Of a stretch of 56,995 bases of DNA, positions 21,198 to 53,043 are shown piece after piece. A program made the position numbers and the translations under genes. Origin of the DNA: an uncultured Methanosarcinales archaeon. Its GTDB lineage: Archaea > Nanobdellota > Nanobdellia > Woesearchaeales > CG1-02-33-12. Under the pieces are notes generated by a model, which did no database searches, was not told where the DNA came from, and saw nothing but the letters and a program-made list of their open reading frames with translations. Location: NCBI GenBank assembly GCA_964641515.1, contig CAZXME010000001.1, forward strand, positions 1-56,995, in the 5' to 3' direction. Numbering within the stretch: the first letter of the stretch is position 1; each line of letters opens with the position of its first letter.

Positions 21198-21210
21198 ATC
21201 CTGCTTAAAA

Positions 21211-22098: not shown

Positions 22099-23051
22099 TA
22101 ATAATAAATTTTACTAATCCTTATTACTTATTGCTTTTAGTAAGCATACCCCTACTTATAATAACCCACTTCTTTGTTTTAGGCTACCTCAAGAGAAGGG
22201 CAGTAAAGTTTGCTAATTTTGAGGCAATCAAAAGAGTGACAGGAACAAAGTTTGAGCTTAAAAATGCAAGAGGAATATCAAAAAATTTGTTTTTGTTAAT
22301 TGTAAGAATGTTTGTATTATTATTTCTTATATTTTCCATATCCGGGCCTGTCCTTTGGTACAGCGGCCAGGGCAGCGAGTTTGATTTTGTTATTACAATA
22401 GATGCCTCAAGTTCTATGCTGGCAGATGATTTCGAGCCATACAGGCTTGATGCTGCAAGAAAGGCATCTTCATTGTTTGTTGAAAGCTTAAAGGCGAGAA
22501 CAAATATTGGTGTTGTTTCTTTTGCAGGAACAAGTTTTGTTGAACAGGATTTAACAAATAACATGGAAGAGACAGAAGATGTTATTACTGGCATAAGAAT
22601 TAAAAGGGTTGGAGGAACTGATATAGGGGGAGCAATAATAACCTCTACAAATATTTTGTTAAACCAGAAAAATTCAAGGGTTATTATCCTTCTGACAGAC
22701 GGGCAGAGCACTGTTGGAACACCTGTTGATACAGCTATTGAATATGCAAACAAAAATTATGTAACAATTAACACTATAGGCCTTGGCACAGAAGAAGGAG
22801 GGACATTCATAAAAGGTGATTTACTCTCAAAACTTGATGAGCCCACTCTTATTGACATAGCCCAAAAAACAGATGGTAAGTATTATAGGGCTGAGAATGA
22901 GAAAAGTTTAGCTAATGCATTTGAAGAAATATCTTCAAGTTCACAGAAAAAAATACCTGTAAATCTTTCAATGGGCTTCATGATGACCGCACTGGCATTA
23001 TTGTTTATTGAGTGGGGTATGATAAACACAAAGTATAGAACATTACCCTAA
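22095..23051 (+). CDS. Membrane-anchored von Willebrand factor A protein (BatA-like)
   Basis: It has N-terminal TM helices. The MIDAS motif is DASSSMLADDFEPYRLDAARKA, followed by LLTDGQST and a C-terminal TM segment. An ATGA start overlaps the DUF58 stop. Confidence 0.85.
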   Translation: MIIINFTNPYYLLLLVSIPLLIITHFFVLGYLKRRAVKFANFEAIKRVTGTKFELKNARGISKNLFLLIVRMFVLLFLIFSISGPVLWYSGQGSEFDFVITIDASSSMLADDFEPYRLDAARKASSLFVESLKARTNIGVVSFAGTSFVEQDLTNNMEETEDVITGIRIKRVGGTDIGGAIITSTNILLNQKNSRVIILLTDGQSTVGTPVDTAIEYANKNYVTINTIGLGTEEGGTFIKGDLLSKLDEPTLIDIAQKTDGKYYRAENEKSLANAFEEISSSSQKKIPVNLSMGFMMTALALLFIEWGMINTKYRTLP

Positions 23052-25141: not shown

Positions 25142-26119
25142 ATGAACGTTTTAGACAATATAATAAAAAAAGCCAGAAAAAACCCTAAGAATATTGTTTT
25201 TCCAGAAGCATTAGATGAGAGGATTTTAAAGGCTTCTGAAATTATCTTAAAAAAAGGAATTGCAAGGGTTATTCTTTTAGGCAATCCAAAAGAAGTGATT
25301 GAGAAGGCAGATAAACTAAAGCTTAATCTTAATGGCATTAAAATAATTAATCACTTAAAATCAGAAAAATTTGAAAGTTATGCAAAAAAGCTTTTTGAGT
25401 TAAGGAAGAATAAAGGAATTAGTTTGAATGATGCTGAAAAAATGCTGAAAAATGAGCTCTACTTTGGTGCTATGATGCTGAACTGCAATGATGCTGATGG
25501 CTTAATAGGGGGGGCATCTCATTCAACATCAGAAGCAGTAAGGGTAGCTTTTCAGATAATAAAAACAAAAAAGAATGTTAAAAAAGTGTCTGGTGCTATG
25601 ATTATGATAAAAAATGACAAATTGCTGCTATTTGCTGATTGCGCAATTATTCCAAACCCAAGCTCAGAAGATCTTGCTGAAATCTCAAGGCTTTCAATCA
25701 AAACATTTGAAAATCTTTTTAATAAAAAAGCAAGAGTAGGAATGCTTTCATATTCAACAATTGGCTCTGGAAAGGGAGAAGATGTGGATAGGGTAAGAAA
25801 AGCAGTAAATATTGCCAAAAAATCCGGATTAAATGTTGTTGGTGAAATTCAGCCAGATGCTGCCCTCATAGAAGATGTTTGTGAAATAAAATGTCCTAGT
25901 ATTAACTGCCGGAAAAAAATTAATGTGCTTGTGTTTCCGAGCCTTAATTCTGGCAATATTTCATACAAGCTTGTTGAAAGATTAGGGAATGTAAGGGCAA
26001 TTGGCCCAATACTTCAGGGCCTTAAAAAACCAATGAATGACCTATCAAGAGGATGCTCTGTTCAGGATATTGTTGACCTTGCTGCAATAACTGTCGTACA
26101 GGCCCAAAAAAGGGATTAA
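25142..26119 (+). CDS. pta: Phosphate acetyltransferase (short form)
   Basis: Motifs present: IVFPEALDERILKAS, ADGLIGGASHSTSEAVR, FADCAIIPNP, GEIQPDAAL, NDLSRG. Confidence 0.9.
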   Translation: MNVLDNIIKKARKNPKNIVFPEALDERILKASEIILKKGIARVILLGNPKEVIEKADKLKLNLNGIKIINHLKSEKFESYAKKLFELRKNKGISLNDAEKMLKNELYFGAMMLNCNDADGLIGGASHSTSEAVRVAFQIIKTKKNVKKVSGAMIMIKNDKLLLFADCAIIPNPSSEDLAEISRLSIKTFENLFNKKARVGMLSYSTIGSGKGEDVDRVRKAVNIAKKSGLNVVGEIQPDAALIEDVCEIKCPSINCRKKINVLVFPSLNSGNISYKLVERLGNVRAIGPILQGLKKPMNDLSRGCSVQDIVDLAAITVVQAQKRD

Positions 26120-26120
26120 C

Positions 26121-27302
26121 ATGAAAATTTTGGTATTAAATTCTGGCTCAAGCTCTCTGAAGTTTCAGCTTTTTGAGGTTAAAGAAAAAGAACATGTCTT
26201 GATTAAAGGAATTGTTGATGGCATTAGATTAGATAATTCATTTATCAAATATGAAATAGAATGTAACAGTAAGAAAATAAAGAAAAAAATTAAAAACCAT
26301 AGGATAGCATTAAAGAATGTTCTTGACATAATTCTGGCTAATAATATCATAAGTTCTCTTGGTGAAATAACGGCCATTGGCCACAGGGCAGTTCATGGCG
26401 GTGAGGAGTTTAAAAAAACTGTTTTGATTAATGATAAAGTTATGAAAAAGATTGAAGAATTAAGTGAGCTTGCCCCTTTGCATAATCCTGCAAACCTTAC
26501 TGGAATGAAAGTTTGCAAAGAACTCCTGCCAAATGTAAAACAGGTTGCTGTTTTTGATACTTGTTTTCATAGTAATATGCCTGAAAAAGCATTTGTTTAT
26601 GGGGTTCCTTATAAGTATTATAAAGAACATGGTATAAGGCGCTATGGATTCCATGGAACTTCACATCATTATGTTTCAGAAAAAGCAGCTGAAATCTTAA
26701 AAAAAGATTACAAGAAATTAAAAATAATAACCTGCCACTTGGGAAACGGCTCAAGCATTGCTGCAGTTATGAATGGAAAAAGTGTTGATACATCAATGGG
26801 TTTTACTCCTCTTGAAGGTATTGTTATGGGAACTCGCTGTGGTGATATTGACCCTGCTATAATCCTGTTTTTAATGAAAAAAGAAAAACTTTCTGTTAAA
26901 GAAATGGATAGTATATTAAACAAAAAATCAGGGTTATTGGGAATATCTGGAATAAGCCCTGATGTCAGGGTTTTATGGGATAATGAGAAAAAAGGAAACA
27001 AAAGAGCACATCTTACTCTTGATGTTCTTGCTTACAGAATTACAAAATATATTGGATCTTATATTTCTGTTTTAAATGGTGTTGATGCAATTGTTTTTAC
27101 AGCAGGCATTGGAGAGAATGCATATTATTTAAGGGAAAAAATACTTAAGAATTTTGAATACATTGGCCTTAAGATTGACAAAAAAAGAAACAAAAACAAT
27201 GAGTTAATAATCTCAGCAGATAATTCTAAGATAAAGGCCTTAGTAATCCCAACAAACGAAGAACTCCAAATAGCCAGAGAAACCTTTGAGTTAGTTAAAT
27301 AA
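26121..27302 (+). CDS. ackA: Acetate kinase
   Basis: Motifs present: MKILVLNSGSSSLKFQLF, HRAVHGG, HNPANL, RRYGFHGTSH, CHLGNGSSIAA, FTAGIGEN. Confidence 0.95.
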   Translation: MKILVLNSGSSSLKFQLFEVKEKEHVLIKGIVDGIRLDNSFIKYEIECNSKKIKKKIKNHRIALKNVLDIILANNIISSLGEITAIGHRAVHGGEEFKKTVLINDKVMKKIEELSELAPLHNPANLTGMKVCKELLPNVKQVAVFDTCFHSNMPEKAFVYGVPYKYYKEHGIRRYGFHGTSHHYVSEKAAEILKKDYKKLKIITCHLGNGSSIAAVMNGKSVDTSMGFTPLEGIVMGTRCGDIDPAIILFLMKKEKLSVKEMDSILNKKSGLLGISGISPDVRVLWDNEKKGNKRAHLTLDVLAYRITKYIGSYISVLNGVDAIVFTAGIGENAYYLREKILKNFEYIGLKIDKKRNKNNELIISADNSKIKALVIPTNEELQIARETFELVK

Positions 27303-27303
27303 A

Positions 27304-28365
27304 TTAATAATTTAACTTGTATCTTAGAATTGCTGCTATTCCGCCAAGGCCGTCGAGCTTCTTGCCGCCGTCGTGGTCTGAGCCAATTATATTCACATTG
27401 CCTTTCATGCTCTCTGTGTTTTTCATCATCTGGTCTATTTTTTCATAAGTTTTATTTAATCTTGTCTTTTGTATGAGGCCGTCTGTAACCAATAGTTTTT
27501 CAACAGCTCCTGCATTAACAGCTTTTTCTGTTTCTTTCAGGCCATAAACAGCTAAATTGTTTTTTGAGATTTCCTCTAATAAAGATTCAACTAGCTTTAG
27601 CTCTTTTGCAATCCTCTGCTGGCTCAGGACATTTTTTACCTCGGGCCTTTTCAAGACCTCATTAATTGCCTCTTTTCCAGAGCAGGAGCATGTTGCTAAA
27701 GTAATTTTGTTCTTAACTTCTTTATCTTTTATGTTTTTCATTAAATCTTCTTTCCAGAATGAAGGACTTGCCAGTATTATGTTTTCAATCTTGTATCTTT
27801 TAACATAATCATAAAGCTTGTTTACAACCTCTGCATAAAAGTTTCCTGTTTTTGTTTTTACATCGGCTTTTTTCTCAACATCCCCTTTAATCTCAGATAA
27901 CAGACTAAAGCCCTGTCTTTTTAAAAGCCCAAAGCATACATCATCCCTGTCAAGAACACAGATTAGTATTTTTTTGGTTTCAACTGAGGCCTGTTTTATT
28001 TTCTCAATCTGGAAGCTTAGCCATTGCTTTTTTATTAGTGTAATTATAGAACCCTGCTCAAGGTTAAATGTGTGGTATGAGCCTTTTTGTATATCTTCTG
28101 GACCTTGGGTTATAGTTCCTGAAACCCTCAAGACAGAAGAATATTCATGAAATTCTATACTTTCAACTTTTATTTCAATGAAAATAGTTTTCTTGATAAT
28201 AGTGGATTTTCTTTGGTCATTATCCCCTATTTTTATTTTTCTTATAGTCTTGCCTTTAACAAAATCATCTGGCTCTATTATATGGCTTAAACACCAGAGG
28301 TCATCCATATTCTCTATTTTGAGTTTTGCTTCCCCTTTCTTCAAATTAAAGTGTATTTGTTTCAT
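27304..28365 (-). CDS. pelA: Pelota (Dom34 homolog, mRNA surveillance/ribosome rescue)
   Basis: 353 aa with a three-domain eRF1-like layout. The C-terminal block is AVYGLKETEKAVNAGAVEKLLVTD. Confidence 0.85.
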   Translation of the reverse strand: MKQIHFNLKKGEAKLKIENMDDLWCLSHIIEPDDFVKGKTIRKIKIGDNDQRKSTIIKKTIFIEIKVESIEFHEYSSVLRVSGTITQGPEDIQKGSYHTFNLEQGSIITLIKKQWLSFQIEKIKQASVETKKILICVLDRDDVCFGLLKRQGFSLLSEIKGDVEKKADVKTKTGNFYAEVVNKLYDYVKRYKIENIILASPSFWKEDLMKNIKDKEVKNKITLATCSCSGKEAINEVLKRPEVKNVLSQQRIAKELKLVESLLEEISKNNLAVYGLKETEKAVNAGAVEKLLVTDGLIQKTRLNKTYEKIDQMMKNTESMKGNVNIIGSDHDGGKKLDGLGGIAAILRYKLNY

Positions 28366-28425
28366 ACCTTTAAAATAGGAAAACTTATATATATTAAGTT
28401 ATCTATTTGATGTAGGTGATCATAC

Positions 28426-29637
28426 ATGAATTTAACTATAAAAAGTAAAAAAGCTGATAATACCATTACTAGCGCTGGAGGTGCAATGGGACTTGTTTCC
28501 CTTATGGTTGGATTTATCATATTATATATTATATTTCTTCCGCCAGATGAAAGGGCAAAATTATTAGGAGAAAATGAAACTGTTGTAGAAGCTGAAGAAA
28601 ATGCTAGTGTAGAAGATGAAGAAAACATTTTAATGCTTGAGTACCCTGGAAGAATTGATTATCTAAAAGAAAAAGAATATGAGCACGATATTTCCTGGTT
28701 TCATTTATATAAAACAATAGATGCACAGGAATTAGATACTATCAATCCGTTTGTTATAAGGCATGGGTTATTTGATGAGGTAAAAAAAGAAATTCCTTTA
28801 AAGATATCAGATTTGAAAAATACAGAAAGTATTTTATTATCATTTACAGCAAAAAAGTATGATGGATTACTAACTATAAAATTAAATGATGTTAATATAT
28901 TTGAGAGTGAAATAACAACATCAAATCCAAAACCAATCAAACTTAAAAAAGATTATCTTGAAGAAAATAATATATTGGAGTTTAGTGTTTCTGGAACAGG
29001 GATTAAGTTTTGGTCAACAAATATTTACAGCTTGGATGATATCAAAATAGTTGGCGATGTTGCCGATATAAGCAGGCAGGAAAGCAAGAATATATTCTTT
29101 ATAAGCGAGAATGAAAAACTAAATTTAGAGAGAGCAAAACTCAGGTTTTTGCCTGAGTGCGAACAAGGGGATGTTGGAAAACTTGATATATTAATTAATT
29201 ATCAAGAAGTCTTTTCTGGAGTGCCTGACTGCAAAACAATCAATATGTATACTTTCTCACCATCAGTTTTACATAAAGGTGATAATAATATTGTTTTTAA
29301 GACAGACAAGGGCTCTTACCTTATTGAACAAATAAAGATAACAACTGACCTTAAAGAGCTAAGTTATTCAACATATTATTTTCCGATTAATGAAACAACA
29401 ATTGAAAAGATTGAAGGGGATGAATATGATGCTGTGTTTTCTATTGAATTTATAGATGACAAAAAAGACAAGGAAATGAACATCAACATAAACAACAGGA
29501 TGATTTATGTTGATACAGATGAAGTAGATTATTACAAAAATATAGATGACTATGTAAAAGAAGGCAACAATTTCATAAAGATAGAGCCATTATCAATGCT
29601 TGATATTGTTGAGTTAAAAGTAGAGCTTGAAGAATGA
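28426..29637 (+). CDS. N-terminally anchored beta-rich extracytoplasmic protein (three similar ~100-aa modules), unknown family
   Basis: 403 aa. AGGTGA lies 8 nt upstream. The TM segment is GLVSLMVGFIILYIIFL. Recurrent modules end in ...NNILEFSV, ...NNIVFKTDKGSYLIEQIKI and ...GNNFIKIEPLSMLDIVELKVEL. Confidence 0.65.
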   Translation: MNLTIKSKKADNTITSAGGAMGLVSLMVGFIILYIIFLPPDERAKLLGENETVVEAEENASVEDEENILMLEYPGRIDYLKEKEYEHDISWFHLYKTIDAQELDTINPFVIRHGLFDEVKKEIPLKISDLKNTESILLSFTAKKYDGLLTIKLNDVNIFESEITTSNPKPIKLKKDYLEENNILEFSVSGTGIKFWSTNIYSLDDIKIVGDVADISRQESKNIFFISENEKLNLERAKLRFLPECEQGDVGKLDILINYQEVFSGVPDCKTINMYTFSPSVLHKGDNNIVFKTDKGSYLIEQIKITTDLKELSYSTYYFPINETTIEKIEGDEYDAVFSIEFIDDKKDKEMNININNRMIYVDTDEVDYYKNIDDYVKEGNNFIKIEPLSMLDIVELKVELEE

Positions 29638-29666
29638 TTTTTTTGTTTTTCTAAAAAAGAGGAGTT

Positions 29667-31934
29667 ATGCCAGGAGAAAGAGATGCAATATCGGATATTG
29701 TAAAGGGATGGTCAGGTGCGGCTGGAGCAAAGCTTGGTTCTATAAATTGCTTTTTTATTTTATGCCTACTTTTTCATATGTGGGATGTTTTAACAGACTT
29801 TAGAGAACTTAGCGCAAGGATAGTTGTTTATATATTACTCTTAATCATTGGATGGCTTACAATATTCAAAAAAGAGCAGGGTGTTATGGATATTGCTGAC
29901 CTCAAGATGCCAATAATACTTTCAACACTTGCTTTTTTTATACCATATTTAGGAAATGTAATACCTTTTTTTGCAAGGTCCCAGACATTTCATACAATGA
30001 TTATTTTTCTGCCTGTCTGGGTAATATATGTTGGTTTTGCAATGCAGGAAACAAAGTTTATTGTCTTCTTTAGATGGGTGCTTATTTTCTTTTGGCTGAT
30101 ATTATTTCTTCCCTCAATATTTATTGGTATTTCAACTGACTTTCATATAAGGGATATTGAATCAACAGTCAATGTACAACAGACAATAGTTGATGCAACA
30201 AGGGATTGGGGAAGTAATTTCAAAAGATTCTGGAAAAATGTTCTAGATATCCCAGCAAGAATTGGAAAAGAATTCCAACATATGATAATGTATGCAACAG
30301 GAGACTATTACACAGGTAAGGTTGATGAATATGAAAAAGAGCCAATAGGGGTTTATCTTGAAGACTTAGAATCAACAGACCCAGTGTTTTTCCAAGGCGA
30401 GAATATAACTGTTTGGGGAACTCTTAAAGCAAAAACTCTTGATGATAAAATAAATATAAAGGTTTCATGTTATGCAAAAGAAGGAAGCAAAGAAGTTATG
30501 GGAAATGTTATGCCTACTGAATTCAATATATATGATGAGGAAATTGAGGATATTAGCTGTGTATTCAGTGACCTTAAGCCAGGAAAGAAGGATGTTGTAT
30601 TTAATGCTGAATTCAATTTTGAGACAATGGCTTACTTAAAGCTTTATTTCATAAACAGAGAGACCTTAAGGGGTTTCAAAAGAGATAATATTGATGTTTT
30701 TGATTTTTATGATATAGATCATATAAATCCAGTTGCAATATATACTAATGGACCTATAAGAATGGGAATGGGAATAAAAAAAGAGCTTCCAATTGGAGTA
30801 GATACTGATGAAGAAAATATTCCATTTTCTTTAGGAATAACCCTCCAGAATGATTGGGGTGGAATAATAAAGGATGTAACTGAGTTAAATGTTTATTTGC
30901 ATGATAGCATGGGATTAATAAGGTGTGACCATGAATTCGAAAATATGGGGCATGTAGATGAGGAACAGGCAAGTTATAATGTTTATAGTTTAGTTGTTCC
31001 TAACAGAAGAACACAAAATATATCTGATTATGAAACTATTACATGTAGTGTAAATGTCCTTGATCCTGAAAGTTTGCTTGGTGGCGAGGGTATAATAACA
31101 AGATATTTCAGAGTCTCAACAAAATACATTTATGAGCTTGAAAAATCAACTTCTGTTGAGGTAGAGGAAACAGAAGGGTATGAAGCAGCTCCGGATGTTG
31201 ATGAGTTAAAAGAAGTAAAAGAGAGTGAAGAAATAAAGAAAGAATGTGACAGTATAGAAAATTGTGATGATTACAACAATGAAAAGAAATACTATGATTT
31301 ATATGATTTTAGCACCAGGACATGGTGTGAGGCAGACCCATGCGGCCTAAAAAACTGCTATTGGGATGAAACCAAGATGAAATGTATGGAAAAAGAAGAA
31401 GAGGAACTAGAAGAAGGGGAAGGAATGGAAAAACCTGTTACTAAAATTACTGCGACAAAAGAACAAATAGATAACTACCTCAAAGAAAAAGCTGGTCCAA
31501 AGCTTAAGGACGCTGGTGACATTTTTTATGAATATGGAAATTATTATGGGATTGACCCTGCTTTTGCTATTGCGGTATCTAAACAAGAAACATCTTTATC
31601 AAAAGATACTTGTGCAAGTATCTCGCAAGATTGTAATAACTTTTTTTGTATGACTCATGATGCAGCTAAAATTACTGATTTATCTACTGGAACTTGTGGA
31701 ACGTGGGCTAGTTTTAGCAGTGTTGATGATGGAATCAGAGCTTTTTATATATATATTAAAGAAGGATATCTTGAAAGAGAGAAAATAGGAGAAAAGCCTC
31801 AAACAACTCCTGCAGAAATAACTTGTGCGTCTGGTTCGGGATTTACAACGCATTGTTATTGTGGTACTACTCTTGAAGAACATGATGATTGGGCAACAAA
31901 GATTGCAAATTTCAGAGAAGAAGTATCATCATAA
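29667..31934 (+). CDS. Polytopic membrane protein with a large beta-rich domain, a Cys-rich linker and a C-terminal lysozyme-like (GH23 SLT / GH73-like) domain
   Basis: 755 aa. GAGGAG lies upstream. There are about 5-6 TM helices in residues 20-160. Residues ~225-500 resemble the downstream lipoprotein family. Residues ~526-575 are a Cys-rich acidic linker. Residues ~597-750 carry GIDPAFAIAVSKQETSLSKD...NNFFCMT...WASFSSVDDGIRAF. Confidence 0.65.
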   Translation: MPGERDAISDIVKGWSGAAGAKLGSINCFFILCLLFHMWDVLTDFRELSARIVVYILLLIIGWLTIFKKEQGVMDIADLKMPIILSTLAFFIPYLGNVIPFFARSQTFHTMIIFLPVWVIYVGFAMQETKFIVFFRWVLIFFWLILFLPSIFIGISTDFHIRDIESTVNVQQTIVDATRDWGSNFKRFWKNVLDIPARIGKEFQHMIMYATGDYYTGKVDEYEKEPIGVYLEDLESTDPVFFQGENITVWGTLKAKTLDDKINIKVSCYAKEGSKEVMGNVMPTEFNIYDEEIEDISCVFSDLKPGKKDVVFNAEFNFETMAYLKLYFINRETLRGFKRDNIDVFDFYDIDHINPVAIYTNGPIRMGMGIKKELPIGVDTDEENIPFSLGITLQNDWGGIIKDVTELNVYLHDSMGLIRCDHEFENMGHVDEEQASYNVYSLVVPNRRTQNISDYETITCSVNVLDPESLLGGEGIITRYFRVSTKYIYELEKSTSVEVEETEGYEAAPDVDELKEVKESEEIKKECDSIENCDDYNNEKKYYDLYDFSTRTWCEADPCGLKNCYWDETKMKCMEKEEEELEEGEGMEKPVTKITATKEQIDNYLKEKAGPKLKDAGDIFYEYGNYYGIDPAFAIAVSKQETSLSKDTCASISQDCNNFFCMTHDAAKITDLSTGTCGTWASFSSVDDGIRAFYIYIKEGYLEREKIGEKPQTTPAEITCASGSGFTTHCYCGTTLEEHDDWATKIANFREEVSS

Positions 31935-31998
31935 TATCAATAATTATTTAAATAAATATTTTGAATATGATAAAATATTTGCCAATTAAAAAATAAAG

Positions 31999-32931
31999 AT
32001 GAAACAAAACAAAAATACTGGAATTATTTTATTAGTTATAATAACATTAGTTTTCTTTTTATCTGGGTGCATAGGGCCATTTAATCTTCAAAATCCAGCT
32101 AACCAAGATGAGTTTCGTAAGGGGAATGATGGCATATTAATAAATTTTTTAGATAATGCCCCTCCAAGCGAAACATATGAAGATTATCCATTCAGTATAG
32201 GCCTTATGTTAAAGAATGCTGGAGCATATGATACAAACGGTGGAATTATTTCTTTTACAGTTGAAGAGGATTACATAGACCTGTTAGACAATAATGATAT
32301 TAGGTTTAATCTAAAGGGAAAATCCCTTGCTCTTCCAATAGGGGATCAGAAAACTGAGGTAATAAGAGCAAAAGCAAAAAAAATAAGCGGGCAAAGTGAA
32401 ATGCATACATCTAAAATATTAACAAGTATATGCTACCCCTATCAGACAAAAAAAAGTGTTGATGTATGCATAGACACAGACATATATAATATAAAGAATA
32501 TTCAAAAAGTATGTAATGTAAAGGACATAACATTAACCACTCAGGGAGCACCAGTTGCAATAACAAAGATAGAAAGTGAAATGCTTTCATCAGAAGACGA
32601 GAATATTGTAAAACCCTCCTTTGAAATATATGTAAAAAATGTCGGGGATGGAATAGCTTTTGCTAAAGAGAAAGTCAATGATGCATGCTCTTCTGCACCA
32701 TTAAAATATGAGGAATTAAATGCAGTTGAAATAAAAGTTATGATGTCTGGTGAAGAACTTCAGTGCAGGGAAAAAATATTAAAGTTAAAGGAAAATAAAG
32801 ACAGTGTGAGATGTGTTTTTGAAAAAGGTATATCTACAGAAAAGTTTGTTTATACAACCCCTCTTACAATTGAATTAAACTATGGTTATTCTACCTCAAT
32901 ATCAAAAGACATATTAATAAAAAAAGAGTAG
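31999..32931 (+). CDS. Lipoprotein-like secreted protein, paralog 1 of 3
   Basis: 310 aa with lipobox-like LSGC. Shared family blocks: FRKGNDGILINFLDNAPPSETYEDYPF...LKNAGAY, ICYPYQT...VCID, QGAPVAITKIE, YTTPLTIELNYGYSTSISKDILI. Confidence 0.75.
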   Translation: MKQNKNTGIILLVIITLVFFLSGCIGPFNLQNPANQDEFRKGNDGILINFLDNAPPSETYEDYPFSIGLMLKNAGAYDTNGGIISFTVEEDYIDLLDNNDIRFNLKGKSLALPIGDQKTEVIRAKAKKISGQSEMHTSKILTSICYPYQTKKSVDVCIDTDIYNIKNIQKVCNVKDITLTTQGAPVAITKIESEMLSSEDENIVKPSFEIYVKNVGDGIAFAKEKVNDACSSAPLKYEELNAVEIKVMMSGEELQCREKILKLKENKDSVRCVFEKGISTEKFVYTTPLTIELNYGYSTSISKDILIKKE

Positions 32932-32975
32932 TCAATAGAAAGTTTTAAATACAAATCAGAGGATTATATAACAAA

Positions 32976-33926
32976 ATGAGAAAGATTATATTAATAACCT
33001 TCATATTTCTTTTATTTCTTAGTTTTGGATGTACTCCAAAAACAGAGGACAGTGTTGATTACAGAAAAGGAACTCAGGGAATTGTTATGAATTTTATGGA
33101 AGATATGCCTCCAGCAAAGATGTATGATAACATGCCAATTGATCTTGTTGTGGAAATAAGAAACAAAGGGGCTTATCCCCAGCCAAATCCTATTACAGGT
33201 TGGGCAATTAATGTAATTAACCCAAATGCAAAAGGAATAGGCACACTCTATCTTAGTGGTTTTGATGACAAAATTGTAACAGGCATGCCAAAACAAATGA
33301 AAATTCCAGAACTTGAAGGAAAAACTTCCTATAACCTAGAAGGGGGTTTTGATACAGTTTTATTTCATGGGAATATAGTAGATCTTAGTAGCAGGAAGAT
33401 CGATACTAATTATAATGCAGAATTCCTTGTAATATCATGTTATAATTATGAAACAATAGCATATCAAACAGTTTGCATTGATCCGGATCCTTATTCAATA
33501 AAGCAAAAGACAAAGGTTTGTACTGTTCCCCCAAGTTATTCATTATCTGGCGGTCAGGGAGCTCCTGTTGCTGTTACAAAAATAGAGGAGACTACTCTTG
33601 CAAACAAAATACAATTTATAATATATATAAAAAACGTTGGCAGTGGTAAGGTTATTGATAAGAACAGGCTTAATATTGACTGCCCATATTCATTAAGCAG
33701 TGAAAATCTTGATAAGGTTTATGTAAGTGGACGTGTATCTGGATACAGCCTTAGCTGTAAGCCAAGAAATCCAATCACTTTAACAAAAGGGGAGAGAATT
33801 GTTGTATGCACTATCCCAAAACCAACAATGAGCAGATCAGCATACACTACTCCGCTTCAGATTAAATTAGAGTATGGTTATTCATCATCGATACAAAGGA
33901 GTGTTGAAATATTAAACACACCCTGA
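32976..33926 (+). CDS. Lipoprotein-like secreted protein, paralog 2 of 3
   Basis: 316 aa. The signal ends in SFGC. Blocks: YRKGTQGIVMNFMEDMPPAKMYDNMPI...IRNKGAY, SCYNYET...VCID, QGAPVAVTKIEE, YTTPLQIKLEYGYSSSIQRSVEIL. Confidence 0.75.
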   Translation: MRKIILITFIFLLFLSFGCTPKTEDSVDYRKGTQGIVMNFMEDMPPAKMYDNMPIDLVVEIRNKGAYPQPNPITGWAINVINPNAKGIGTLYLSGFDDKIVTGMPKQMKIPELEGKTSYNLEGGFDTVLFHGNIVDLSSRKIDTNYNAEFLVISCYNYETIAYQTVCIDPDPYSIKQKTKVCTVPPSYSLSGGQGAPVAVTKIEETTLANKIQFIIYIKNVGSGKVIDKNRLNIDCPYSLSSENLDKVYVSGRVSGYSLSCKPRNPITLTKGERIVVCTIPKPTMSRSAYTTPLQIKLEYGYSSSIQRSVEILNTP

Positions 33927-33981
33927 TTAACAGAAAAATTTATATAATCAAATAATGTATTAAAAACTGGAGGCTTAAAAA

Positions 33982-34902
33982 ATGAAAAATTATGTTAATG
34001 TAATATTAATATGTGCACTATTGGTTTTTGCATTTGGATGCAATCAGGAAACTCCAATTTCTAAGGAAAGCCCATTTATTGGCGGAACAACAGGGCTTTT
34101 AATAAGCTATAACCAAGATGAACCTCCTGCAGAGGTTTATGATGGGGGAGATTTCCCTTTTGATGTTGTTGTTAAGCTAAAGAATGAGGGTGAATATTCA
34201 GTAAATAAGGATAAGGTTGAGATAAGACTAAGTGGAATTGATCCAAGGGAATTTGGATTATCTGATTCTGATTTTGTTAAGCATCCTGATGAAGATTTAC
34301 AAGGGACTTACCAAGATTCTGAAGGAAATAAGATAGAAGGAACACCAAATTATGTTATATTCTCTGAATTAAATCACAATGAAAAATTAATTGGAAATAC
34401 CCCCTATACAATAAGAGCAGATGTCTGTTATAATTATGCAACAAATGCTAGGTCAATGCTTTGCATAAAAAATAACCAGGTTGATAAAGAGGGAGATATT
34501 TGCAAGATTAATGAGAACAAAATTGTTTTTAACTCAGGCGGCCCAGTACAGGTTATAAGCTTTAATGAAATCCCAGGGGGCAAAAACAAGTTTAAATTCC
34601 AGTTTAAGATAGAACCAAAGGGAAATGGAGGAGTTTATAAGAAAGACTCAAACTGTGAACAGGCTAGGGTAAATGAAAATAAGGTTTTTGTTAGTATTGA
34701 TACTGGAATGGATGGCTTAAGCTGCACAGGACTTGATGGGACTACAAGTGGCTATGTTACATTATATGGCGGAGAACGCATGATAATCTGCACTCAAGAT
34801 ACAGAAACAAACACTGATTTTGAGAGACCTGTTAACATAAAGTTAGAGTATGATTATAAAGAAGGCATATCGACACAGGTTCTAGTAAAGCATTCAATTT
34901 AA
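33982..34902 (+). CDS. Lipoprotein-like secreted protein, paralog 3 of 3 (most divergent)
   Basis: 306 aa. GGAGG lies 9 nt upstream. The signal ends in AFGC. Blocks: FIGGTTGLLISYNQDEPPAEVYDGGDFPF...LKNEGEY, VCYNYAT...LCIK, SGGPVQVISFNE, FERPVNIKLEYDYKEGISTQVLVK. Confidence 0.75.
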   Translation: MKNYVNVILICALLVFAFGCNQETPISKESPFIGGTTGLLISYNQDEPPAEVYDGGDFPFDVVVKLKNEGEYSVNKDKVEIRLSGIDPREFGLSDSDFVKHPDEDLQGTYQDSEGNKIEGTPNYVIFSELNHNEKLIGNTPYTIRADVCYNYATNARSMLCIKNNQVDKEGDICKINENKIVFNSGGPVQVISFNEIPGGKNKFKFQFKIEPKGNGGVYKKDSNCEQARVNENKVFVSIDTGMDGLSCTGLDGTTSGYVTLYGGERMIICTQDTETNTDFERPVNIKLEYDYKEGISTQVLVKHSI

Positions 34903-35873
34903 TTTTCTTTTTTTATTCCTGCTAATGTAATCTGGCTTAACAATGCCTCAAGCTGTAAGAATTCATCAGAGCCCTCTACCATCCTGAACTCTATCTCACC
35001 GCATTTATCTATTAAGAACATCTTTTTTCTTGGTTCAATATTGATGTTTAATATCTCTTTTTGAATTTGTTTTATTATGTCTATTCCAGATAATCCATAC
35101 TCAAGCATAATATCCAATAATTTGTTCCTTGCATCCTTAAATTTATTTTTTAAGGCAAGATTTAATACTTCGCCTACTTCTTTTGGCCTTGCAACAGATG
35201 CTATTGAATAAATTAATTCTTCTGTTATATTGCTGGATAATGATGCACAACTTTGCAATAGGTTTTCCAGCCTCCTGCAATCACCATTGCTGACATCATA
35301 CAATGCTTCTTTTGTCTTATCATCTATGTTTAATGATTCTGCTCTTGCAATTTTTTCAATTGTTTCTATTATCTCTTTCTTGCTCAAAAACTTAAACCTG
35401 AATATTGCACATCTTGATTGTATAGGATCAATGATTTTGCTGCTGTAGTTACAGCTGAGAATAAAGCGGCATGTTCTTGTATAATTCTCCATTGTCCTTC
35501 TTAAGGCCTGCTGTGCCTCTTTTGTCAATGCATCTGATTCGTCAAGGTAAATTATCTTAAACGGAACATTGCCAATTGCTCTTGTCCTTGCAAAGTCCTT
35601 TACCTTGTTTCTTACAACATCAATCCCCCTTTCGTCAGAAGCATTTAATTCAAGAATATTCTCGTGCCAGCTGTCACCAAACAATTTTTTTGATATTACC
35701 AAAGCCAGGCTTGTCTTGCCTGTTCCTGCTGGCCCTGAAAATAATAGATGAGGCATATTTTTTTGCTTAACAAATGCCTTTGCCCTCTTAACAATTTCTT
35801 TCTGGCCTTTGATATCAGAAAATTCTTTAGGCCTATATTTTTCAGTCCAGATTGTACTTTCCATAAAGAGCAT
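34899..35873 (-). CDS. rfcS: Replication factor C small subunit
   Basis: Motifs present: WTEKYRP, Walker A SGPAGTGKTS, Walker B YLDESDALT, and the SRC motif IQSRCAIFRF. There is no intein. Confidence 0.92.
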   Translation of the reverse strand: MLFMESTIWTEKYRPKEFSDIKGQKEIVKRAKAFVKQKNMPHLLFSGPAGTGKTSLALVISKKLFGDSWHENILELNASDERGIDVVRNKVKDFARTRAIGNVPFKIIYLDESDALTKEAQQALRRTMENYTRTCRFILSCNYSSKIIDPIQSRCAIFRFKFLSKKEIIETIEKIARAESLNIDDKTKEALYDVSNGDCRRLENLLQSCASLSSNITEELIYSIASVARPKEVGEVLNLALKNKFKDARNKLLDIMLEYGLSGIDIIKQIQKEILNINIEPRKKMFLIDKCGEIEFRMVEGSDEFLQLEALLSQITLAGIKKEN

Positions 35874-38896: not shown

Positions 38897-39787
38897 CTAT
38901 ATTTTTATTTTCATGAAGTCATAGGCACAGATTGTATTTGAGAAAACATCTTTTGCATCATCTTCTATTTCTTCCATTGTCTTGTATCGCTGGCTGAAGT
39001 GTGTTAAAATTAGCTTTTTTGCTTTTGCTTGATTAGCCAATAAACCTGCCTGCTTTGATGTCATATGCATGTATTCAGCTGCCTTTTCCTCAAGTTTATG
39101 TGCATAAGTTGCCTCACAAACTAAAATATCAGAATCCATTGCAAGCTTTAATGCATTATTACAGGGCACTGTATCTGCTATAAAACTCAGTTTTTTACCC
39201 TTAACAGTATAAGTTGCCTGCTCTGGCGTTATTTTCTTTCCCTTAAAGGTTATGCTCTTGCCTGACTGCAACTTGCCCAGTAAGGGGCCATCCGGAATGC
39301 CAAGCTTTCTTACTGCATCAATTCTTATTCTTCTTTTATCTTTTTCAATAAAACTAAAACCAAGTGTTAAAATACTATGCTCAAGAGGAAGTGCTTCCAG
39401 AAAAAAATCCTTTCCTTCAAAAAATCTTTTCTTTGTAATTTCATGAATTTTTGTTTCTATTTTATCTTCAAAGGAAAATGCCTTGAACATATTTTTCATT
39501 CTTTCCTTTGTTCCTTCTGGTCCGTAAATCTCAAGAACCTTATCATATTCATTTTTTGCTAAAGTTTGTATTAAACCAGGAATACCAAGAACATGATCAC
39601 CATGCCAATGGCTTATCAATATTTTTGTTACTTTTGATGGCTTTACCCCTGCAATTTTCATCTGTCTTTGCGTGCCTTCACCACAATCAATTAAAATACC
39701 TTCAGAGCCATAGCTAATTAAAGCAGCTGAATGGTTTCTCTCTTTTGTCGGGACCATTGCACTTGTCCCTAAAAATGTTAATTGCAT
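38897..39787 (-). CDS. rnz: Ribonuclease Z (tRNA 3' endonuclease)
   Basis: It has the HxHxDH motif ISHWHGDH and the N-terminus MQLTFLGTSAMVPT. The track start at 39796 is TTG; the ATG at 39787 is preferred. Confidence 0.9.
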   Translation of the reverse strand: MQLTFLGTSAMVPTKERNHSAALISYGSEGILIDCGEGTQRQMKIAGVKPSKVTKILISHWHGDHVLGIPGLIQTLAKNEYDKVLEIYGPEGTKERMKNMFKAFSFEDKIETKIHEITKKRFFEGKDFFLEALPLEHSILTLGFSFIEKDKRRIRIDAVRKLGIPDGPLLGKLQSGKSITFKGKKITPEQATYTVKGKKLSFIADTVPCNNALKLAMDSDILVCEATYAHKLEEKAAEYMHMTSKQAGLLANQAKAKKLILTHFSQRYKTMEEIEDDAKDVFSNTICAYDFMKIKI

Positions 39788-39840
39788 CTTAAACAAAAGG
39801 GTTATCTTTATATATTTAATATTTTGTATTGTTTATTTAC

Positions 39841-52410: not shown

Positions 52411-52489
52411 TTTAAACCCCAATCATTATTTGATTTAATATAGTATTGAATAGTAATAAATAGGTTTAGTATATAAATCTTTCGTTTTT

Positions 52490-52507
52490 TGTTATTTAAA
52501 AGTAACA
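52490..52507. promoter_or_regulatory. Palindrome TGTTA-N8-TAACA (candidate TrmB operator, copy 2)
   Basis: Read directly from the sequence, 80-97 nt upstream of ATG 52410. The half-sites and spacing are the same as at 24979-24996. Confidence 0.4.
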
Positions 52508-52554
52508 AAAAATCAAAAAACATTAAAATATCTCCTAAGGAAACTATACTCACT

Positions 52555-52576
52555 CACCCCTATGTTTCATATGGAC
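52555..52576 (-). promoter_or_regulatory. ORB-like origin recognition box (left, inverted)
   Basis: The reverse complement GTCCATATGAAACATAGGGGTG matches the right box in 17 of 22 positions. It has a dyad-GAAAC-spacer-GGGG layout like archaeal ORB elements. Confidence 0.5.
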
Positions 52577-52962: not shown

Positions 52963-52984
52963 TTTCATTTGAAACAAGGGGGTG
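52963..52984 (+). promoter_or_regulatory. ORB-like origin recognition box (right)
   Basis: The sequence is TTTCATTTGAAACAAGGGGGTG. See the left box. Confidence 0.5.
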
Positions 52985-53030
52985 ACAGGCAAAATAATAG
53001 GTTTTTTATAATTTAAACAAGGACCTTATT

Positions 53031-53043
53031 TTCTAGTGGAAAA
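53031..53043 (+). promoter_or_regulatory. Mini-ORB-like TTCTAGTGGAAAA abutting the orc1/cdc6 start codon
   Basis: It resembles the TTCCAGTGGAAA-type dyad core of archaeal mini-ORBs. A further CTCCTAAGGAAAC lies at 52532-52544. Confidence 0.35.

What the first reader, a model, noticed from the sequence alone, without database searches (positions are those of the whole stretch)
28426..34902. Five-gene envelope module of unknown families: anchored beta-protein, polytopic lysozyme-like protein and three tandem lipoprotein paralogs
The five co-directional plus-strand genes have 29-, 64-, 44- and 55-nt spacers. Three of them have clear GGAG/AGGTGA ribosome-binding runs. The module is wedged between two minus-strand housekeeping genes (pelota and RFC small subunit). 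Every product is predicted to be membrane-anchored or exported. The central 755-aa protein has three parts: a multi-TM base, a ~275-aa domain related to the three downstream lipoprotein-like proteins, and a terminal lysozyme-like domain behind a Cys-rich acidic linker. I recognise no described archaeal system with this composition. My working hypothesis is a membrane-embedded surface machine that contacts and locally hydrolyses a partner cell's wall (bacterial murein or a related glycan), with the paralogous lipoproteins acting as the periplasm-like or surface scaffold.
Basis: partly seen in the sequence, partly recalled or inferred. Interest (0 to 1): 0.7.

Follow-up and report, generated by a model that had tools for sequence, protein, structure and literature searches.

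The report
Archaeal operon with swappable wall-cutting enzyme
A five-gene operon kept at the same chromosomal spot in nearly all sampled Woesearchaeota (tiny DPANN archaea) encodes a membrane-anchored surface assembly whose central protein carries an exchangeable enzyme for cutting bacterial cell walls, which gives a concrete molecular handle on whether these archaea live on or prey on bacteria.

Summary
Five co-directional genes sit at exactly the stated coordinates between pelota and RFC-small. In 77 GTDB species loci, all Woesearchaeota/Nanoarchaeia, the same order recurs. g2 or a g2-like gene follows g1 in 60/60 loci, pelota lies upstream in 61/62, and the exact layout (g2, three lipoproteins, RFC) occurs in 31/44.

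The three lipoproteins are ancient position-specific orthologs. The 755-aa protein has about 5 TM helices, a long helix, a confidently modelled double beta-sandwich, a Cys-rich linker and a weak GH73-like tail.

Across the family (1,540 clusters at 50% identity) that tail position holds SLT (about half), GH73, Amidase_2/3, M23, NlpC/P60 or lysozyme-like domains. Relatives with 83-90% identical cores switch abruptly to SLT after the linker. A relative with a 47% identical core shares the window's tail at 69%. So the catalytic cassette is exchanged.

No S-layer, viral, defence or solved-structure match exists for the non-catalytic parts.

Best reading: an outward-facing, membrane-tethered murein-hydrolase complex used against bacterial walls at close range. 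The enzyme family was already noted in DPANN papers. The operon, the lipoprotein trio and the cassette swapping apparently were not. The complex and the target are inferred, not shown.

The parts
27304..28365 (-). pelota gene. Conserved upstream boundary of the operon, not a functional part of it.
   Evidence: Pfam eRF1_1/2/3. Present upstream of g1 in 61 of 62 species loci with enough sequence.
28366..28425 (.). 60-nt divergent intergenic region with a TATA-like TTATATATATT (28384-28395) and the AGGTGA Shine-Dalgarno sequence of g1. Putative operon promoter.
   Evidence: Sequence read. The promoter role is inferred only; the sigma-70 scan is at chance level and irrelevant for an archaeon.
28426..29637 (+). 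g1: 403-aa bitopic protein with an N-terminal hydrophobic anchor (aa 13-42) and a roughly 360-aa ectodomain with two invariant Cys. It is the most conserved gene of the module.
   Evidence: about 45% identity across the family, 281 homologs, no Pfam domain. The family N-terminus carries a conserved [KR][KR][AG]-Q-G-G-L-N-A-A motif. Not related to g2 or the lipoproteins by hhalign.
29667..30146 (+). g2 aa 1-160: short cytoplasmic N-terminus and about 5 transmembrane helices (membrane base).
   Evidence: AF2 helices 26-42, 48-67, 76-98, 106-125 and 130-158, pLDDT about 80. Hydropathy. N-terminal segments of the family are net positive in 79% of members.
30147..30338 (+). g2 aa 161-224: long amphipathic helix ending in the most conserved motif of the family (YATGDYYTGxV[DE]ENxxEP[LI]GVYLE).
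   Evidence: AF2 helices 170-211 and 213-223. Invariant or near-invariant A210, Y215, G217, V219, G228.
30339..31181 (+). g2 aa 225-505: double beta-sandwich (Ig-like) ectodomain with four invariant Cys (268, 298, 420, 460). Probably a distant paralog of the lipoprotein fold.
   Evidence: pLDDT >90. Only generic tandem Ig-like fold matches. hhalign to the lipoprotein family P=0.0017-0.0034, collinear over 164-168 columns.
31182..31436 (+). g2 aa 506-590: acidic, Cys-rich linker (6 Cys). Its end (…CYWDETKMKCM, aa about 574-579) is the junction at which catalytic cassettes are exchanged.
   Evidence: Identity to P0003 (83%) and P0004 (90%) stops at aa 579/574.
31437..31934 (+). g2 aa 591-755 plus stop: divergent GH73-like (N-acetylglucosaminidase/lysozyme-like) catalytic cassette.
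   Evidence: Pfam Glucosaminidase E 5e-4, 21.1 bits, below cut-off. PDB 8yxk phage cell-wall hydrolase E 1.5e-4 and LytB GH73 about 1e-3, with the E-[ST] and NNFF motifs aligned. Shared only with P0006/L010 (69% identity).
31999..32931 (+). g3: predicted lipoprotein, positional ortholog group 1 (signal peptide …LSGC).
   Evidence: Position-1 orthology in 1116 of 1122 cross-species best hits.
32976..33926 (+). g4: predicted lipoprotein, positional ortholog group 2. Double beta-sandwich with six conserved Cys besides the lipobox Cys.
   Evidence: AF2 pLDDT 89.4, pTM 0.82. 337 homologs, none annotated. Position-2 orthology 1105/1122. No specific fold match in PDB or BFVD.
33982..34902 (+). g5: predicted lipoprotein, positional ortholog group 3. 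Its stop overlaps the convergent RFC gene by 4 nt.
   Evidence: Position-3 orthology 1097/1122.
34899..35873 (-). RFC small subunit gene. Conserved downstream boundary, not a functional part.
   Evidence: Pfam Rep_fac_C and AAA. Present after the lipoproteins in 33 of the 44 loci with at least 6.5 kb downstream of g1.

Best explanation
The five genes form one operon that builds an extracytoplasmic, membrane-attached assembly on the surface of a Woesearchaeote. g2 is the core. About five TM helices hold it in the membrane, a long helix and a double Ig-like sandwich project outward, and a disulfide-rich linker carries a peptidoglycan-hydrolase 'warhead' at the tip. In this genome the warhead is a divergent GH73-type glycosidase. 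The three lipid-anchored paralogs (g3-g5) share g2's sandwich architecture, and the bitopic g1 protein accompanies them. Most likely all of these associate with g2 as a fixed hetero-oligomeric platform. Because the archaeon has no murein, the enzyme cannot harm its producer and needs no immunity protein. Its substrate is the wall of a bacterium that comes within tens of nanometres, such as a host, prey or neighbour. Local cleavage of the sacculus would allow attachment, penetration or release of cell contents. The warhead is exchanged by recombination at a fixed junction after the linker, presumably tracking the wall chemistry or inhibitors of different bacterial partners. Shown here: gene order, conservation, domain architecture, the identity of the tail domains in relatives, and cassette discordance. 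Inferred: outside topology, complex formation, contact dependence and the ecological purpose.
For: Operon and vertical inheritance:
- Identical placement between pelota and RFC-small in relatives whose g2 is only 33-34% identical.
- In 77 GTDB species loci, g2 follows g1 in 57/60, and the other 3 have a divergent g2-like gene in the same slot.
- Genes are tightly spaced or overlapping in relatives.
- GC content is native.

Murein as target:
- 136 family members scanned gave SLT 64, M23 5, Amidase_2 4, NlpC/P60 2, Amidase_3 1 and lysozyme-like/SLT_2 2, plus the window's weak GH73.
- At species level (56 species) the counts are SLT 27, GH73 5 (best E 2e-18), Amidase_2 1, M23 1 and lysozyme-like 1-2.
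- These families cut different bonds of the same polymer, so murein is the only common denominator.
- The SLT consensus keeps the catalytic E-S…GLMQ motifs.
- The window's tail hits GH73 structures with the catalytic Glu motif aligned.

Cassette exchange:
- 90% and 83% identity up to aa 574/579, then none; those relatives carry SLT.
- L010 shares the tail at 78% DNA and 69% protein identity but the core at only 65% DNA identity.
- Tails fall into 22 clusters and lose homology far faster than cores.

Surface location:
- Lipobox Cys is invariant.
- Conserved Cys pairs occur in all ectodomains.
- g2 N-termini are net positive in 79% of members, and AF2 models 5 TM helices.

Fixed hetero-oligomer:
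- The three lipoprotein positions are ancient one-to-one orthologs in 98-99% of cross-species best hits.

Literature:
- DPANN murein transglycosylases are proposed to attack bacterial walls (PMC8204110, PMC9723730).
- Archaeal PGHs experimentally kill bacteria (PMC12352652).
Against: - No physical evidence that the five proteins interact; no multimer prediction could be run.
- The window's own catalytic domain is sub-threshold in Pfam. Its AF2 model is poor (pLDDT <50), and it did not connect to the family's clear GH73 tails by iterative search.
- Topology is not proven. A crude hydropathy count gives 4 segments nearly as often as 5 across the family.
- About a third of complete g2 proteins have tails with no recognisable hydrolase. 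Three of 56 have no tail, and three species have a short g2-like protein without one. The conserved core must therefore have a role that does not strictly need the enzyme.
- No Woesearchaeote has been cultivated with a bacterial partner in the literature I could search.
- The tether is short, so reaching the murein of a Gram-negative cell would need something else to breach the outer membrane.
Confidence: 0.5

Rival explanations
1. Same surface-tethered hydrolase, but used for feeding rather than for attacking a living partner. It would digest free sacculi, wall fragments or dead cells near the archaeal surface, releasing amino sugars and amino acids for an auxotrophic cell (necrotrophy or scavenging).
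For: The catalytic evidence is the same as for the best explanation. Tethering keeps products near the cell. Papers raise peptidoglycan as a nutrient source for DPANN (PMC11537232, PMC12352652 discussion). The operon neighbours pta-ackA fermentation genes, but that may be coincidental.
Against: No muropeptide transporter, NagZ/AmpD-type recycling enzyme or amino-sugar catabolic gene lies in or next to the operon in any locus examined. Frequent exchange of the catalytic cassette between close relatives resembles conflict or host-range systems more than a digestive enzyme. A scavenging enzyme would be expected to be secreted rather than held on a polytopic protein with four conserved partners.
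Confidence: 0.2
2. The conserved core (g1, the g2 membrane and beta domains, the lipoproteins) is primarily a structural element of the Woesearchaeal envelope, for example a surface-layer anchor, spacer or adhesion platform. The hydrolase would be an optional add-on, possibly acting mainly as a murein-binding adhesin.
For: The core is retained where the tail is absent or unrecognised. g1 and the lipoproteins are more uniformly conserved than the tails. The folds are generic Ig-like sandwiches typical of surface proteins. The operon sits in the housekeeping core genome in nearly all sampled species. Some tails add fn3, PKD or beta/gamma-crystallin modules.
Against: At least 63% of species carry a recognisable murein hydrolase at this exact position, and 144 of 180 members have tails of 100 aa or more. 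Catalytic motifs are conserved rather than degraded. No similarity to any solved S-layer protein. At about 300 aa each, the products are small for lattice-forming S-layer proteins.
Confidence: 0.2
3. An autolysin system that remodels the archaeon's own murein-like or pseudomurein wall during growth and division.
For: Membrane-tethered hydrolases with lipoprotein partners control wall growth in bacteria (general knowledge). The operon is universal and chromosomal in the lineage.
Against: No mur-type synthesis genes appear in the window or in any neighbouring region examined. Pseudomurein is known only in Methanobacteria and Methanopyri (as stated in PMC12352652), and PMC10117817 reports no wall-synthesis genes in DPANN. 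Free interchange of glycosidase, amidase and endopeptidase cassettes would be hard to tolerate in an enzyme acting on the cell's own wall.
Confidence: 0.03
4. A mobile, viral or defence-island module inserted between two housekeeping genes.
For: Wedged between convergent/divergent housekeeping genes. All products are unannotated. Phage tail lysins also carry variable wall hydrolases.
Against: Same insertion point in 61/62 and 33/44 species loci. GC equals that of the flanks. No PHROG hits, no BFVD fold match, no relatives in IMG/VR, no PADLOC hits. No integrase, tRNA or repeats nearby.
Confidence: 0.01

Closest known systems
[quoted passage not shown] 2021, PMC8204110; also Vigneron et al. 2022, PMC9723730; PMC10936187)
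   Same: Same lineage, the same SLT/GH23 domain as in about half of the g2 family, the same proposed role (binding or degrading bacterial walls), and the same link to a symbiotic or predatory lifestyle. Very probably overlaps with the g2 family.
   Different: Those papers report the presence of a domain in MAGs. They do not describe the conserved TM plus double-sandwich core, the five-gene operon, the g1 and lipoprotein partners, or the replacement of SLT by GH73, amidase, M23 or NlpC/P60 at a fixed junction. The window's own protein has no SLT domain and would be missed by a GH23 search.
Secreted archaeal peptidoglycan hydrolases Woldo and Danwoldo of Halogranum salarium (PMC12352652)
   Same: An archaeal producer with no murein of its own. 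Catalytic domains acquired from bacteria (Danwoldo is a PF01832 glucosaminidase). [quoted passage not shown] Experimentally bactericidal.
   Different: They are soluble, Tat-secreted enzymes with PG_binding_1 domains fused to a catalytic domain, and are often plasmid-borne. Here the enzyme is the tip of a polytopic membrane protein, lacks known wall-binding domains, is fixed in the chromosome and is co-inherited with four envelope proteins.
GH73 N-acetylglucosaminidases (Pfam PF01832; e.g. pneumococcal LytB, PDB 4q2w/7pj3; phage cell-wall hydrolase 8yxk)
   Same: Best sequence matches of the window's tail. The E-[ST] catalytic motif and the NNFF(G) motif align.
   Different: Scores are below Pfam's cut-off. 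The domain is Cys-rich, not confidently modelled, and not linked by iteration to the family's clear GH73 tails.
Polymorphic toxin systems (Rhs, CDI, LXG and T6SS effectors) - own knowledge
   Same: A conserved N-terminal delivery or anchoring part with a hypervariable C-terminal effector, exchanged at a sharp junction between close relatives.
   Different: No immunity gene, and none is needed because the producer lacks the target. No dedicated secretion ATPase. Effectors are restricted to wall hydrolases. Archaeal, and fixed in a core-genome operon.
Membrane-anchored wall hydrolases of Gram-positive conjugative type IV secretion systems (PrgK, CwlT, TcpG) and phage virion-associated lysins - own knowledge
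   Same: Structural or membrane proteins that carry variable combinations of SLT, NlpC/P60/CHAP, M23, amidase or GH73 domains to open a local hole in murein for a larger apparatus.
   Different: No VirB4/VirD4-type ATPases, relaxase or phage structural genes are anywhere near. The non-catalytic parts are unrelated.

Membership tests
GH73 / Pfam Glucosaminidase (PF01832), for the window's g2 tail | Score at or above Pfam's gathering cut-off (30.2 bits) | tested here: not met
   21.1 bits, E 5e-4, aa 618-709. The homologous tail of P0006 scores 19.1 bits.
GH73 / Pfam Glucosaminidase (PF01832), for the window's g2 tail | Catalytic Glu in the E-[ST] motif and the downstream NNxFG motif | tested here: met
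   'AVSKQETS' aligns with 'AHSALESN' of LytB and 'AISIHETG' of 8yxk. 'CNNFFCM' aligns with 'KNNFFGI/M'. Both are invariant between the window and L010.
GH73 / Pfam Glucosaminidase (PF01832), for the window's g2 tail | Lysozyme-like alpha/beta fold | tested here: inconclusive
   The AF2 model of aa 580-755 has pLDDT <50, because only one family member shares the tail.
Lytic transglycosylase SLT/GH23 (PF01464) | SLT domain present in the protein | tested here: not met
   Absent from the window's g2. Present in 16/33, 21/52, 27/51 and 27/53 relatives, including P0003 and P0004, whose cores are 83-90% identical.
Prokaryotic lipoproteins (g3, g4, g5) | N-terminal signal peptide with a lipobox ending in an invariant Cys | tested here: met
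   …LSGC, …SFGC and …AFGC in the window. Cys19 is invariant in 46 sequences. Lipobox-like in 23-33 of 34 per position by a strict regular expression.
Prokaryotic lipoproteins (g3, g4, g5) | Actual lipid modification of the Cys | not testable with these tools
   Needs biochemistry. Lipoprotein maturation in DPANN archaea has not been shown.
Archaeal class III signal peptide / type IV pilin-like proteins (g1) | Short basic leader, [KR]-[GA] cleavage site, then a hydrophobic helix; recognised by pilin/class III models | tested here: inconclusive
   The family N-termini show [KR][KR][AG]-Q-G-G-L-N-A-A followed by about 20 hydrophobic residues. No Pfam pilin or Class_IIIsignal hit in 36 members. 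The window's own copy has KKA-DNTITSAGG, a less typical variant.
Archaeal S-layer proteins | Sequence or fold similarity to a described S-layer protein | tested here: not met
   No PDB sequence hits for the g1 or lipoprotein profiles at E<=10. Foldseek against PDB returns only generic Ig-like hits with TM <=0.3.
Viral structural or lysis module | Match to phage protein families, viral folds, or presence on viral contigs | tested here: not met
   PHROGs gives nothing below E 0.04. BFVD best TM is 0.22. No relatives in IMG/VR.
Polymorphic toxin systems | Conserved N-terminal part with non-homologous C-terminal effectors in close relatives | tested here: met
   sharp junction; 22 tail clusters; discordant identity.
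Polymorphic toxin systems | Cognate immunity gene immediately downstream; dedicated secretion system | tested here: not met
   Downstream genes are the conserved lipoprotein orthologs, which do not vary with the tail. No secretion ATPase in any locus.
Type IV secretion/conjugation-associated wall hydrolases | Linkage to VirB4/VirD4-type ATPases and other T4SS genes | tested here: not met
   Neighbours are housekeeping genes in all annotated loci.
Known anti-phage defence systems (PADLOC) | Any component matching a PADLOC model | tested here: not met
   No hits at E<=0.1 for any of the five proteins.
fam00969 of Castelle et al. 2021 (DPANN murein-like lytic transglycosylase family) | Membership of that protein cluster | not testable with these tools
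The overlap is inferred from lineage and domain.

The most novel reading that the evidence does not exclude
The operon encodes a lineage-defining host-interaction organelle of Woesearchaeota. It would be a hetero-oligomeric envelope complex in which g2 and its three lipoprotein paralogs form a pseudo-symmetric ring or stalk, with g1 as a pilin-like or glycan-binding subunit. The complex would dock onto bacterial cells and open their wall with an exchangeable hydrolase tip. Tip type would be matched to the wall chemotype of the bacterial partner. That would make this the first molecular apparatus for an archaeon-on-bacterium episymbiosis or predation, and a marker from which host range could be read in metagenomes.
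Probability: 0.3. Interest if true: 0.85.

Novelty: new variant of a known kind. Interest (0 to 1): 0.64.

Why it matters
Woesearchaeota are among the most abundant and widespread DPANN archaea. None has been grown with an identified partner, and whether their hosts are bacteria is an open question. It currently rests almost entirely on scattered 'murein transglycosylase' annotations. This analysis changes that picture in four ways.

1. The enzyme is not a stray horizontally acquired gene. It is the variable tip of a conserved, vertically inherited five-gene envelope module present at one chromosomal location in nearly every species sampled.
2. Searches for GH23 alone under-count it, because GH73, amidase, M23, NlpC/P60 and unrecognised tails occupy the same slot.
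3. The tip is exchanged between lineages at a fixed junction, which is the signature of an interface under conflict or host-range selection.
4. There are now defined targets for experiments: five small proteins, one junction and a set of natural cassette variants.

If the complex is confirmed, it would be a new type of contact-range wall-breaching device. It needs no immunity protein, because producer and target belong to different domains of life.

Tried and rejected
- **NCBIfam and PHROGs** scans of the five proteins gave nothing meaningful, and Pfam gave only the sub-threshold Glucosaminidase hit.
- **PDB sequence searches** with family profiles returned no hits for g1 or the lipoproteins. 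The g2 core returned only TM-composition noise.
- **Foldseek** of the g2 and g4 models against PDB, and of g4 against BFVD, returned only generic tandem Ig-like matches (integrin legs, archaeal AglB/STT3 C-terminal domain, transglutaminase barrels, SdrG, WxLIP) with TM <=0.3. I do not read any of them as homology.
- **BLAST** between the g2 central domain and the lipoproteins was not significant. Only profile-profile comparison gives a weak signal.
- **g1 against the other families** by hhalign showed no relationship.
- **Iterative profile search** from the window's tail against 205 family tails recruited only P0006/L010. It did not link to the clear GH73 tails.
- **Genome scan with the g2 core alignment** failed because no stretch was conserved enough, so g1 was used instead. 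The synteny survey is therefore conditioned on g1 being present. The g1-less arrangement seen in L003/L004 (Amidase_2 tail plus one lipoprotein) is under-sampled.
- **CBM-like hint in g1** (7/36 members) proved to be roughly 16-bit partial hits, so I dropped it as evidence.
- **Sigma-70 promoter scan** was at chance level and is irrelevant for an archaeon. Terminator-like hits fall inside genes.
- **Rinke et al. 2013** (first report of archaeal murein transglycosylases) is not held in the library. My recollection that activity was tested there is unverified and is not used.
- **Mobile island, defence system and viral module** readings were considered and rejected.


Full report
**1. Observation**

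The window is AT-rich (about 31% GC) and archaeal. It encodes pelota, RFC small subunit, Orc1/Cdc6, the PolD small subunit, a histone, Hjc, TFIIE-alpha and tRNA-intron endonuclease. Shine-Dalgarno runs precede g1, g2 and g5. g1 has one N-terminal hydrophobic segment. g3-g5 have signal peptides ending in G-C. g2 has a multi-helix hydrophobic N-terminal region. The g3/g4/g5 paralogy is clear (E 1e-11 to 8e-39). None of the five has a Pfam, NCBIfam, PHROG or PADLOC family above threshold.

**2. Conservation and synteny**

Each gene has many unannotated homologs, all from Woesearchaeota/Nanoarchaeota MAGs or metagenomes: 51 for g2, 337 for g4 and 281 for g1 in the word-indexed search. An exhaustive profile search with the g2 core found 1,540 clusters at 50% identity, 881 of them at E<=1e-30.

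Two contigs whose g2 is only 33-34% identical show the same layout: ackA, pelota(-), g1, g2, three lipoproteins, RFC-small(-).

A scan of one genome per GTDB species with the g1 alignment returned 77 loci. All are labelled Woesearchaeota, Nanoarchaeota/Nanoarchaeia or Nanobdellota, apart from a batch of third-party assemblies labelled 'uncultured Methanosarcinales' that carry the same operon. HMM annotation of those loci gave the following:
- pelota lies upstream in 61/62 loci.
- g2 sits directly after g1 in 57/60.
- The exact arrangement 'g2 + 3 lipoproteins + RFC' occurs in 31/44 loci with enough downstream sequence. The rest have 2 or 4 lipoproteins or a different downstream gene.

The three loci that seemed to lack g2 contain a shorter, divergent g2-like protein in the same slot, with no hydrolase tail. 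A different, reduced arrangement also exists: g2 with an Amidase_2 tail plus one lipoprotein and no g1.

The module's GC matches its flanks, and there are no tRNAs, integrases or viral relatives nearby. This is an old, vertically inherited operon of the lineage's core genome, not an island.

**3. Anatomy of g2**

AlphaFold2 with a 33-sequence alignment gives five membrane helices (aa 26-158, pLDDT about 80) and a long helix (170-223). It also gives a very confident double beta-sandwich (225-500, pLDDT >90), a partly ordered Cys-rich linker and a poorly modelled tail.

The most conserved sequence of the family is YATGDYYTGxV[DE]ENxxEP[LI]GVYLE at the helix/sandwich boundary. Four Cys in the sandwich are invariant.

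N-terminal cytoplasmic extensions in relatives are long and net positive in 79% of members. Together with five helices, this places the sandwich and tail outside. A crude hydropathy count is not uniform across the family, so topology remains an inference.

Foldseek finds only generic tandem Ig-like matches.

**4. The lipoproteins and g1**

The g4 model is confident (pLDDT 89, pTM 0.82). It is a double beta-sandwich in which each half ends in a strand of about 24 residues (146-168 and 290-313). g2 shows the same feature (306-330 and 476-500). It too has only generic Ig-like matches in PDB and BFVD.

Profile-profile comparison aligns lipoprotein residues about 149-316 with g2 about 309-505 collinearly (P=0.0017 and 0.0034, probability 10-16%). 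The invariant Cys pair of the second sandwich is in register (g4 C236/C278 with g2 C420/C460). I regard common ancestry as probable but not proven.

The three lipoprotein positions are one-to-one orthologs across 34 operons (33 species loci plus the window). The best cross-species hit falls at the same position in 1116, 1105 and 1097 of 1122 comparisons. Within a genome the paralogs are only 24-29% identical. An ancient triplication kept in fixed order argues for three non-redundant subunits.

g1 is the most conserved gene (about 45% identity across the family) and is unrelated to the others by hhalign. Its family N-terminus carries a conserved [KR][KR][AG]-Q-G-G-L-N-A-A motif before the hydrophobic helix, which resembles an archaeal prepilin-type signal. 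No pilin model matches, so this remains a lead.

**5. The tail**

The window's C-terminal 165 residues hit Pfam Glucosaminidase below threshold. As a two-sequence profile they hit GH73 structures: phage cell-wall hydrolase 8yxk at E 1.5e-4 and pneumococcal LytB at about 1e-3. The catalytic E-[ST] and NNFF motifs align.

The decisive evidence is comparative:
- Of 136 family proteins scanned, 64 carry SLT, 5 Peptidase_M23, 4 Amidase_2, 2 NlpC/P60, 1 Amidase_3 and 2 lysozyme-like/SLT_2.
- Of 56 species with a complete g2, 27 carry SLT, 5 unambiguous GH73 (best E 2e-18), 1 Amidase_2, 1 M23 and 1-2 lysozyme-like. Seven add fn3 modules, three have no tail and the rest have unrecognised tails.

These enzymes cleave different bonds (glycan, amide, peptide stem or bridge). 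All of those bonds belong to bacterial murein, so murein is the one substrate that explains the set. The SLT consensus retains its catalytic motifs.

**6. Cassette exchange**

P0004 is 90% identical to the window's g2 from aa 126 to 574, and P0003 is 83% identical from aa 1 to 579. Identity ends abruptly after '…CYWDETKMKCM', and both continue with an SLT domain.

Conversely, L010/P0006 is only 47% identical overall, with the core at 65% DNA identity. Yet it shares the window's GH73-like tail at 69% protein and 78% DNA identity. The tail therefore has a different history from the core.

Family-wide, only 19% of pairs with 40-50% identical cores still have BLAST-detectable homologous tails, and 139 tails fall into 22 single-linkage clusters. 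The cassette's GC is native. This suggests exchange within the lineage's own gene pool rather than fresh import from bacteria.

**7. Mechanism proposed**

Shown here:
- A conserved operon of five predicted envelope proteins.
- A polytopic protein whose distal end is a murein hydrolase in most members.
- Lateral replacement of that end at a fixed junction.
- Three anciently fixed lipoprotein subunits that share an architecture with the g2 ectodomain.

Inferred:
- The products assemble on the outer face of the membrane.
- The hydrolase is held tens of nanometres from the membrane on the sandwich-plus-linker stalk.
- It acts on the wall of a bacterium in contact or close proximity.
- No immunity protein is required, because the producer has no murein.
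- Cassette turnover reflects adaptation to different bacterial walls or inhibitors.

I give this 0.5. The main rivals are scavenging of wall debris (0.2) and a primarily structural or adhesive core with an optional enzyme (0.2). The second is kept alive by the tail-less and unrecognised-tail members. Self-wall remodelling (0.03) and a mobile, viral or defence origin (0.01) are unlikely.

**8. Relation to what is known**

DPANN papers have repeatedly noted 'large murein-like lytic transglycosylase' proteins in Woesearchaeota and Pacearchaeota and proposed attack on, or attachment to, bacteria (PMC8204110, PMC9723730, PMC10936187, PMC11537232). Secreted archaeal peptidoglycan hydrolases have been shown to kill bacteria (PMC12352652). 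So the enzyme and the general idea are not new.

In the searchable literature I found no description of:
- the conserved non-catalytic core;
- the five-gene operon and its fixed chromosomal position;
- the positional lipoprotein orthologs;
- the range of catalytic families at one slot;
- the junction-specific cassette exchange.

Functionally it works like a polymorphic effector, or like the wall hydrolases attached to conjugation machines and phage tails. It fails the membership tests for those systems: there is no immunity gene, no secretion ATPase and no phage genes. I therefore class it as a new variant of a known kind, namely surface-deployed murein hydrolases used between cells.

**9. Limits**

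- No multimer prediction, g1 model or adequate tail model could be made.
- The synteny survey was seeded with g1.
- Taxon labels come from record titles.
- All functional statements are computational.

Noticed in passing
window 52423-53042 (upstream of Orc1/Cdc6 at 53043-54254; PolD small subunit at 54287-55876): A very AT-rich intergenic stretch (GC about 0.24-0.25) where cumulative GC skew reaches a local minimum. It contains repeated AAACATTAAAA(A/T)AT elements in direct (52512, 52584) and inverted (52758) orientation plus AT palindromes. This looks like a replication origin with ORB-like repeats next to cdc6.
   Followed up: partly
window 12282-15191 and 15200-19381 (+): Two adjacent giant surface-type proteins (969 and 1393 aa) with Big_9, He_PIG, Cadherin_5 and PKD Ig-like repeats. 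They are candidate adhesins that could act together with the hydrolase module in cell-cell contact. A similar 2190-aa LTD/Big_9/He_PIG protein lies near the g2 homolog in L003.
   Followed up: no
window 20211-23051 (+): A MoxR AAA+ ATPase, a DUF58 protein and a VWA/BatA protein in a row, forming a Bat-like MoxR-VWA operon.
   Followed up: no
window 28426-28550 (g1 N-terminus) and family alignment A4: The g1 family N-termini share [KR][KR][AG]-Q-G-G-L-N-A-A followed by about 20 hydrophobic residues and P-P-x-E-R. This resembles an archaeal class III (prepilin) signal, which would make g1 a pilin-like surface subunit. No Pfam pilin model matches, and the window's copy is an atypical variant.
   Followed up: partly
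window 29740-29820 (g2 TM1-TM2): Polar or charged residues conserved inside or beside the first membrane helices of g2 (H37, D40, F45, R50 in the 33-sequence alignment; D and F also in larger alignments), plus a conserved N-x4-P-x-W motif in TM4. This is unexplained for a mere anchor.
   Followed up: no
L015 9210-10784, L021 6125-7819, L071 9167-11134: In three species the g2 slot holds a shortened, highly divergent g2-like protein with fewer TM helices, the beta domain still recognisable at E 1e-6 to 5e-9, an acidic tail and no hydrolase. L015 and L021 keep only one lipoprotein.
   Followed up: partly
L003 8001-11992 / L004: A reduced, relocated version of the module: a 1000-aa g2 with an Amidase_2 tail plus a single lipoprotein, followed by H+-pyrophosphatase, with no g1, pelota or RFC nearby. 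It may be a second copy or belong to a different sublineage.
   Followed up: no
loci L007, L010, L013, L020, L021, L024 and about 20 others: Many GTDB representative assemblies titled 'uncultured Methanosarcinales archaeon' (third-party binning projects) carry this Woesearchaeal operon in the canonical pelota/RFC context. The record titles are evidently placeholder or wrong taxon labels.
   Followed up: no
L083 4911-7629 versus window 26119-27304: A strain-level variant whose five module proteins have the same lengths as the window's (g2 is identical in sequence) has two extra genes (a 4HBT thioesterase and an FAD-dependent oxidoreductase) inserted around ackA just upstream of pelota. This shows local indel turnover right next to the invariant operon.
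   Followed up: no
family tails (alignments A5, A6, A7): Some g2 tails carry beta/gamma-crystallin/Inhibitor_I36, PKD or fn3 modules in addition to, or instead of, a recognisable hydrolase. About a third of tails (45-350 aa) match no Pfam family and may hide further wall-active or binding domains.
   Followed up: no
window 34899-34902: The stop codons of g5 (+) and RFC-small (-) overlap by 4 nt. The two convergent genes share no intergenic terminator region.
   Followed up: no
window 38897-39796 (-): A metallo-beta-lactamase-fold protein that hits the Anti-Pycsar Apyc1 Pfam family as well as Lactamase_B. It may simply be an RNase Z-type housekeeping enzyme.
   Followed up: no
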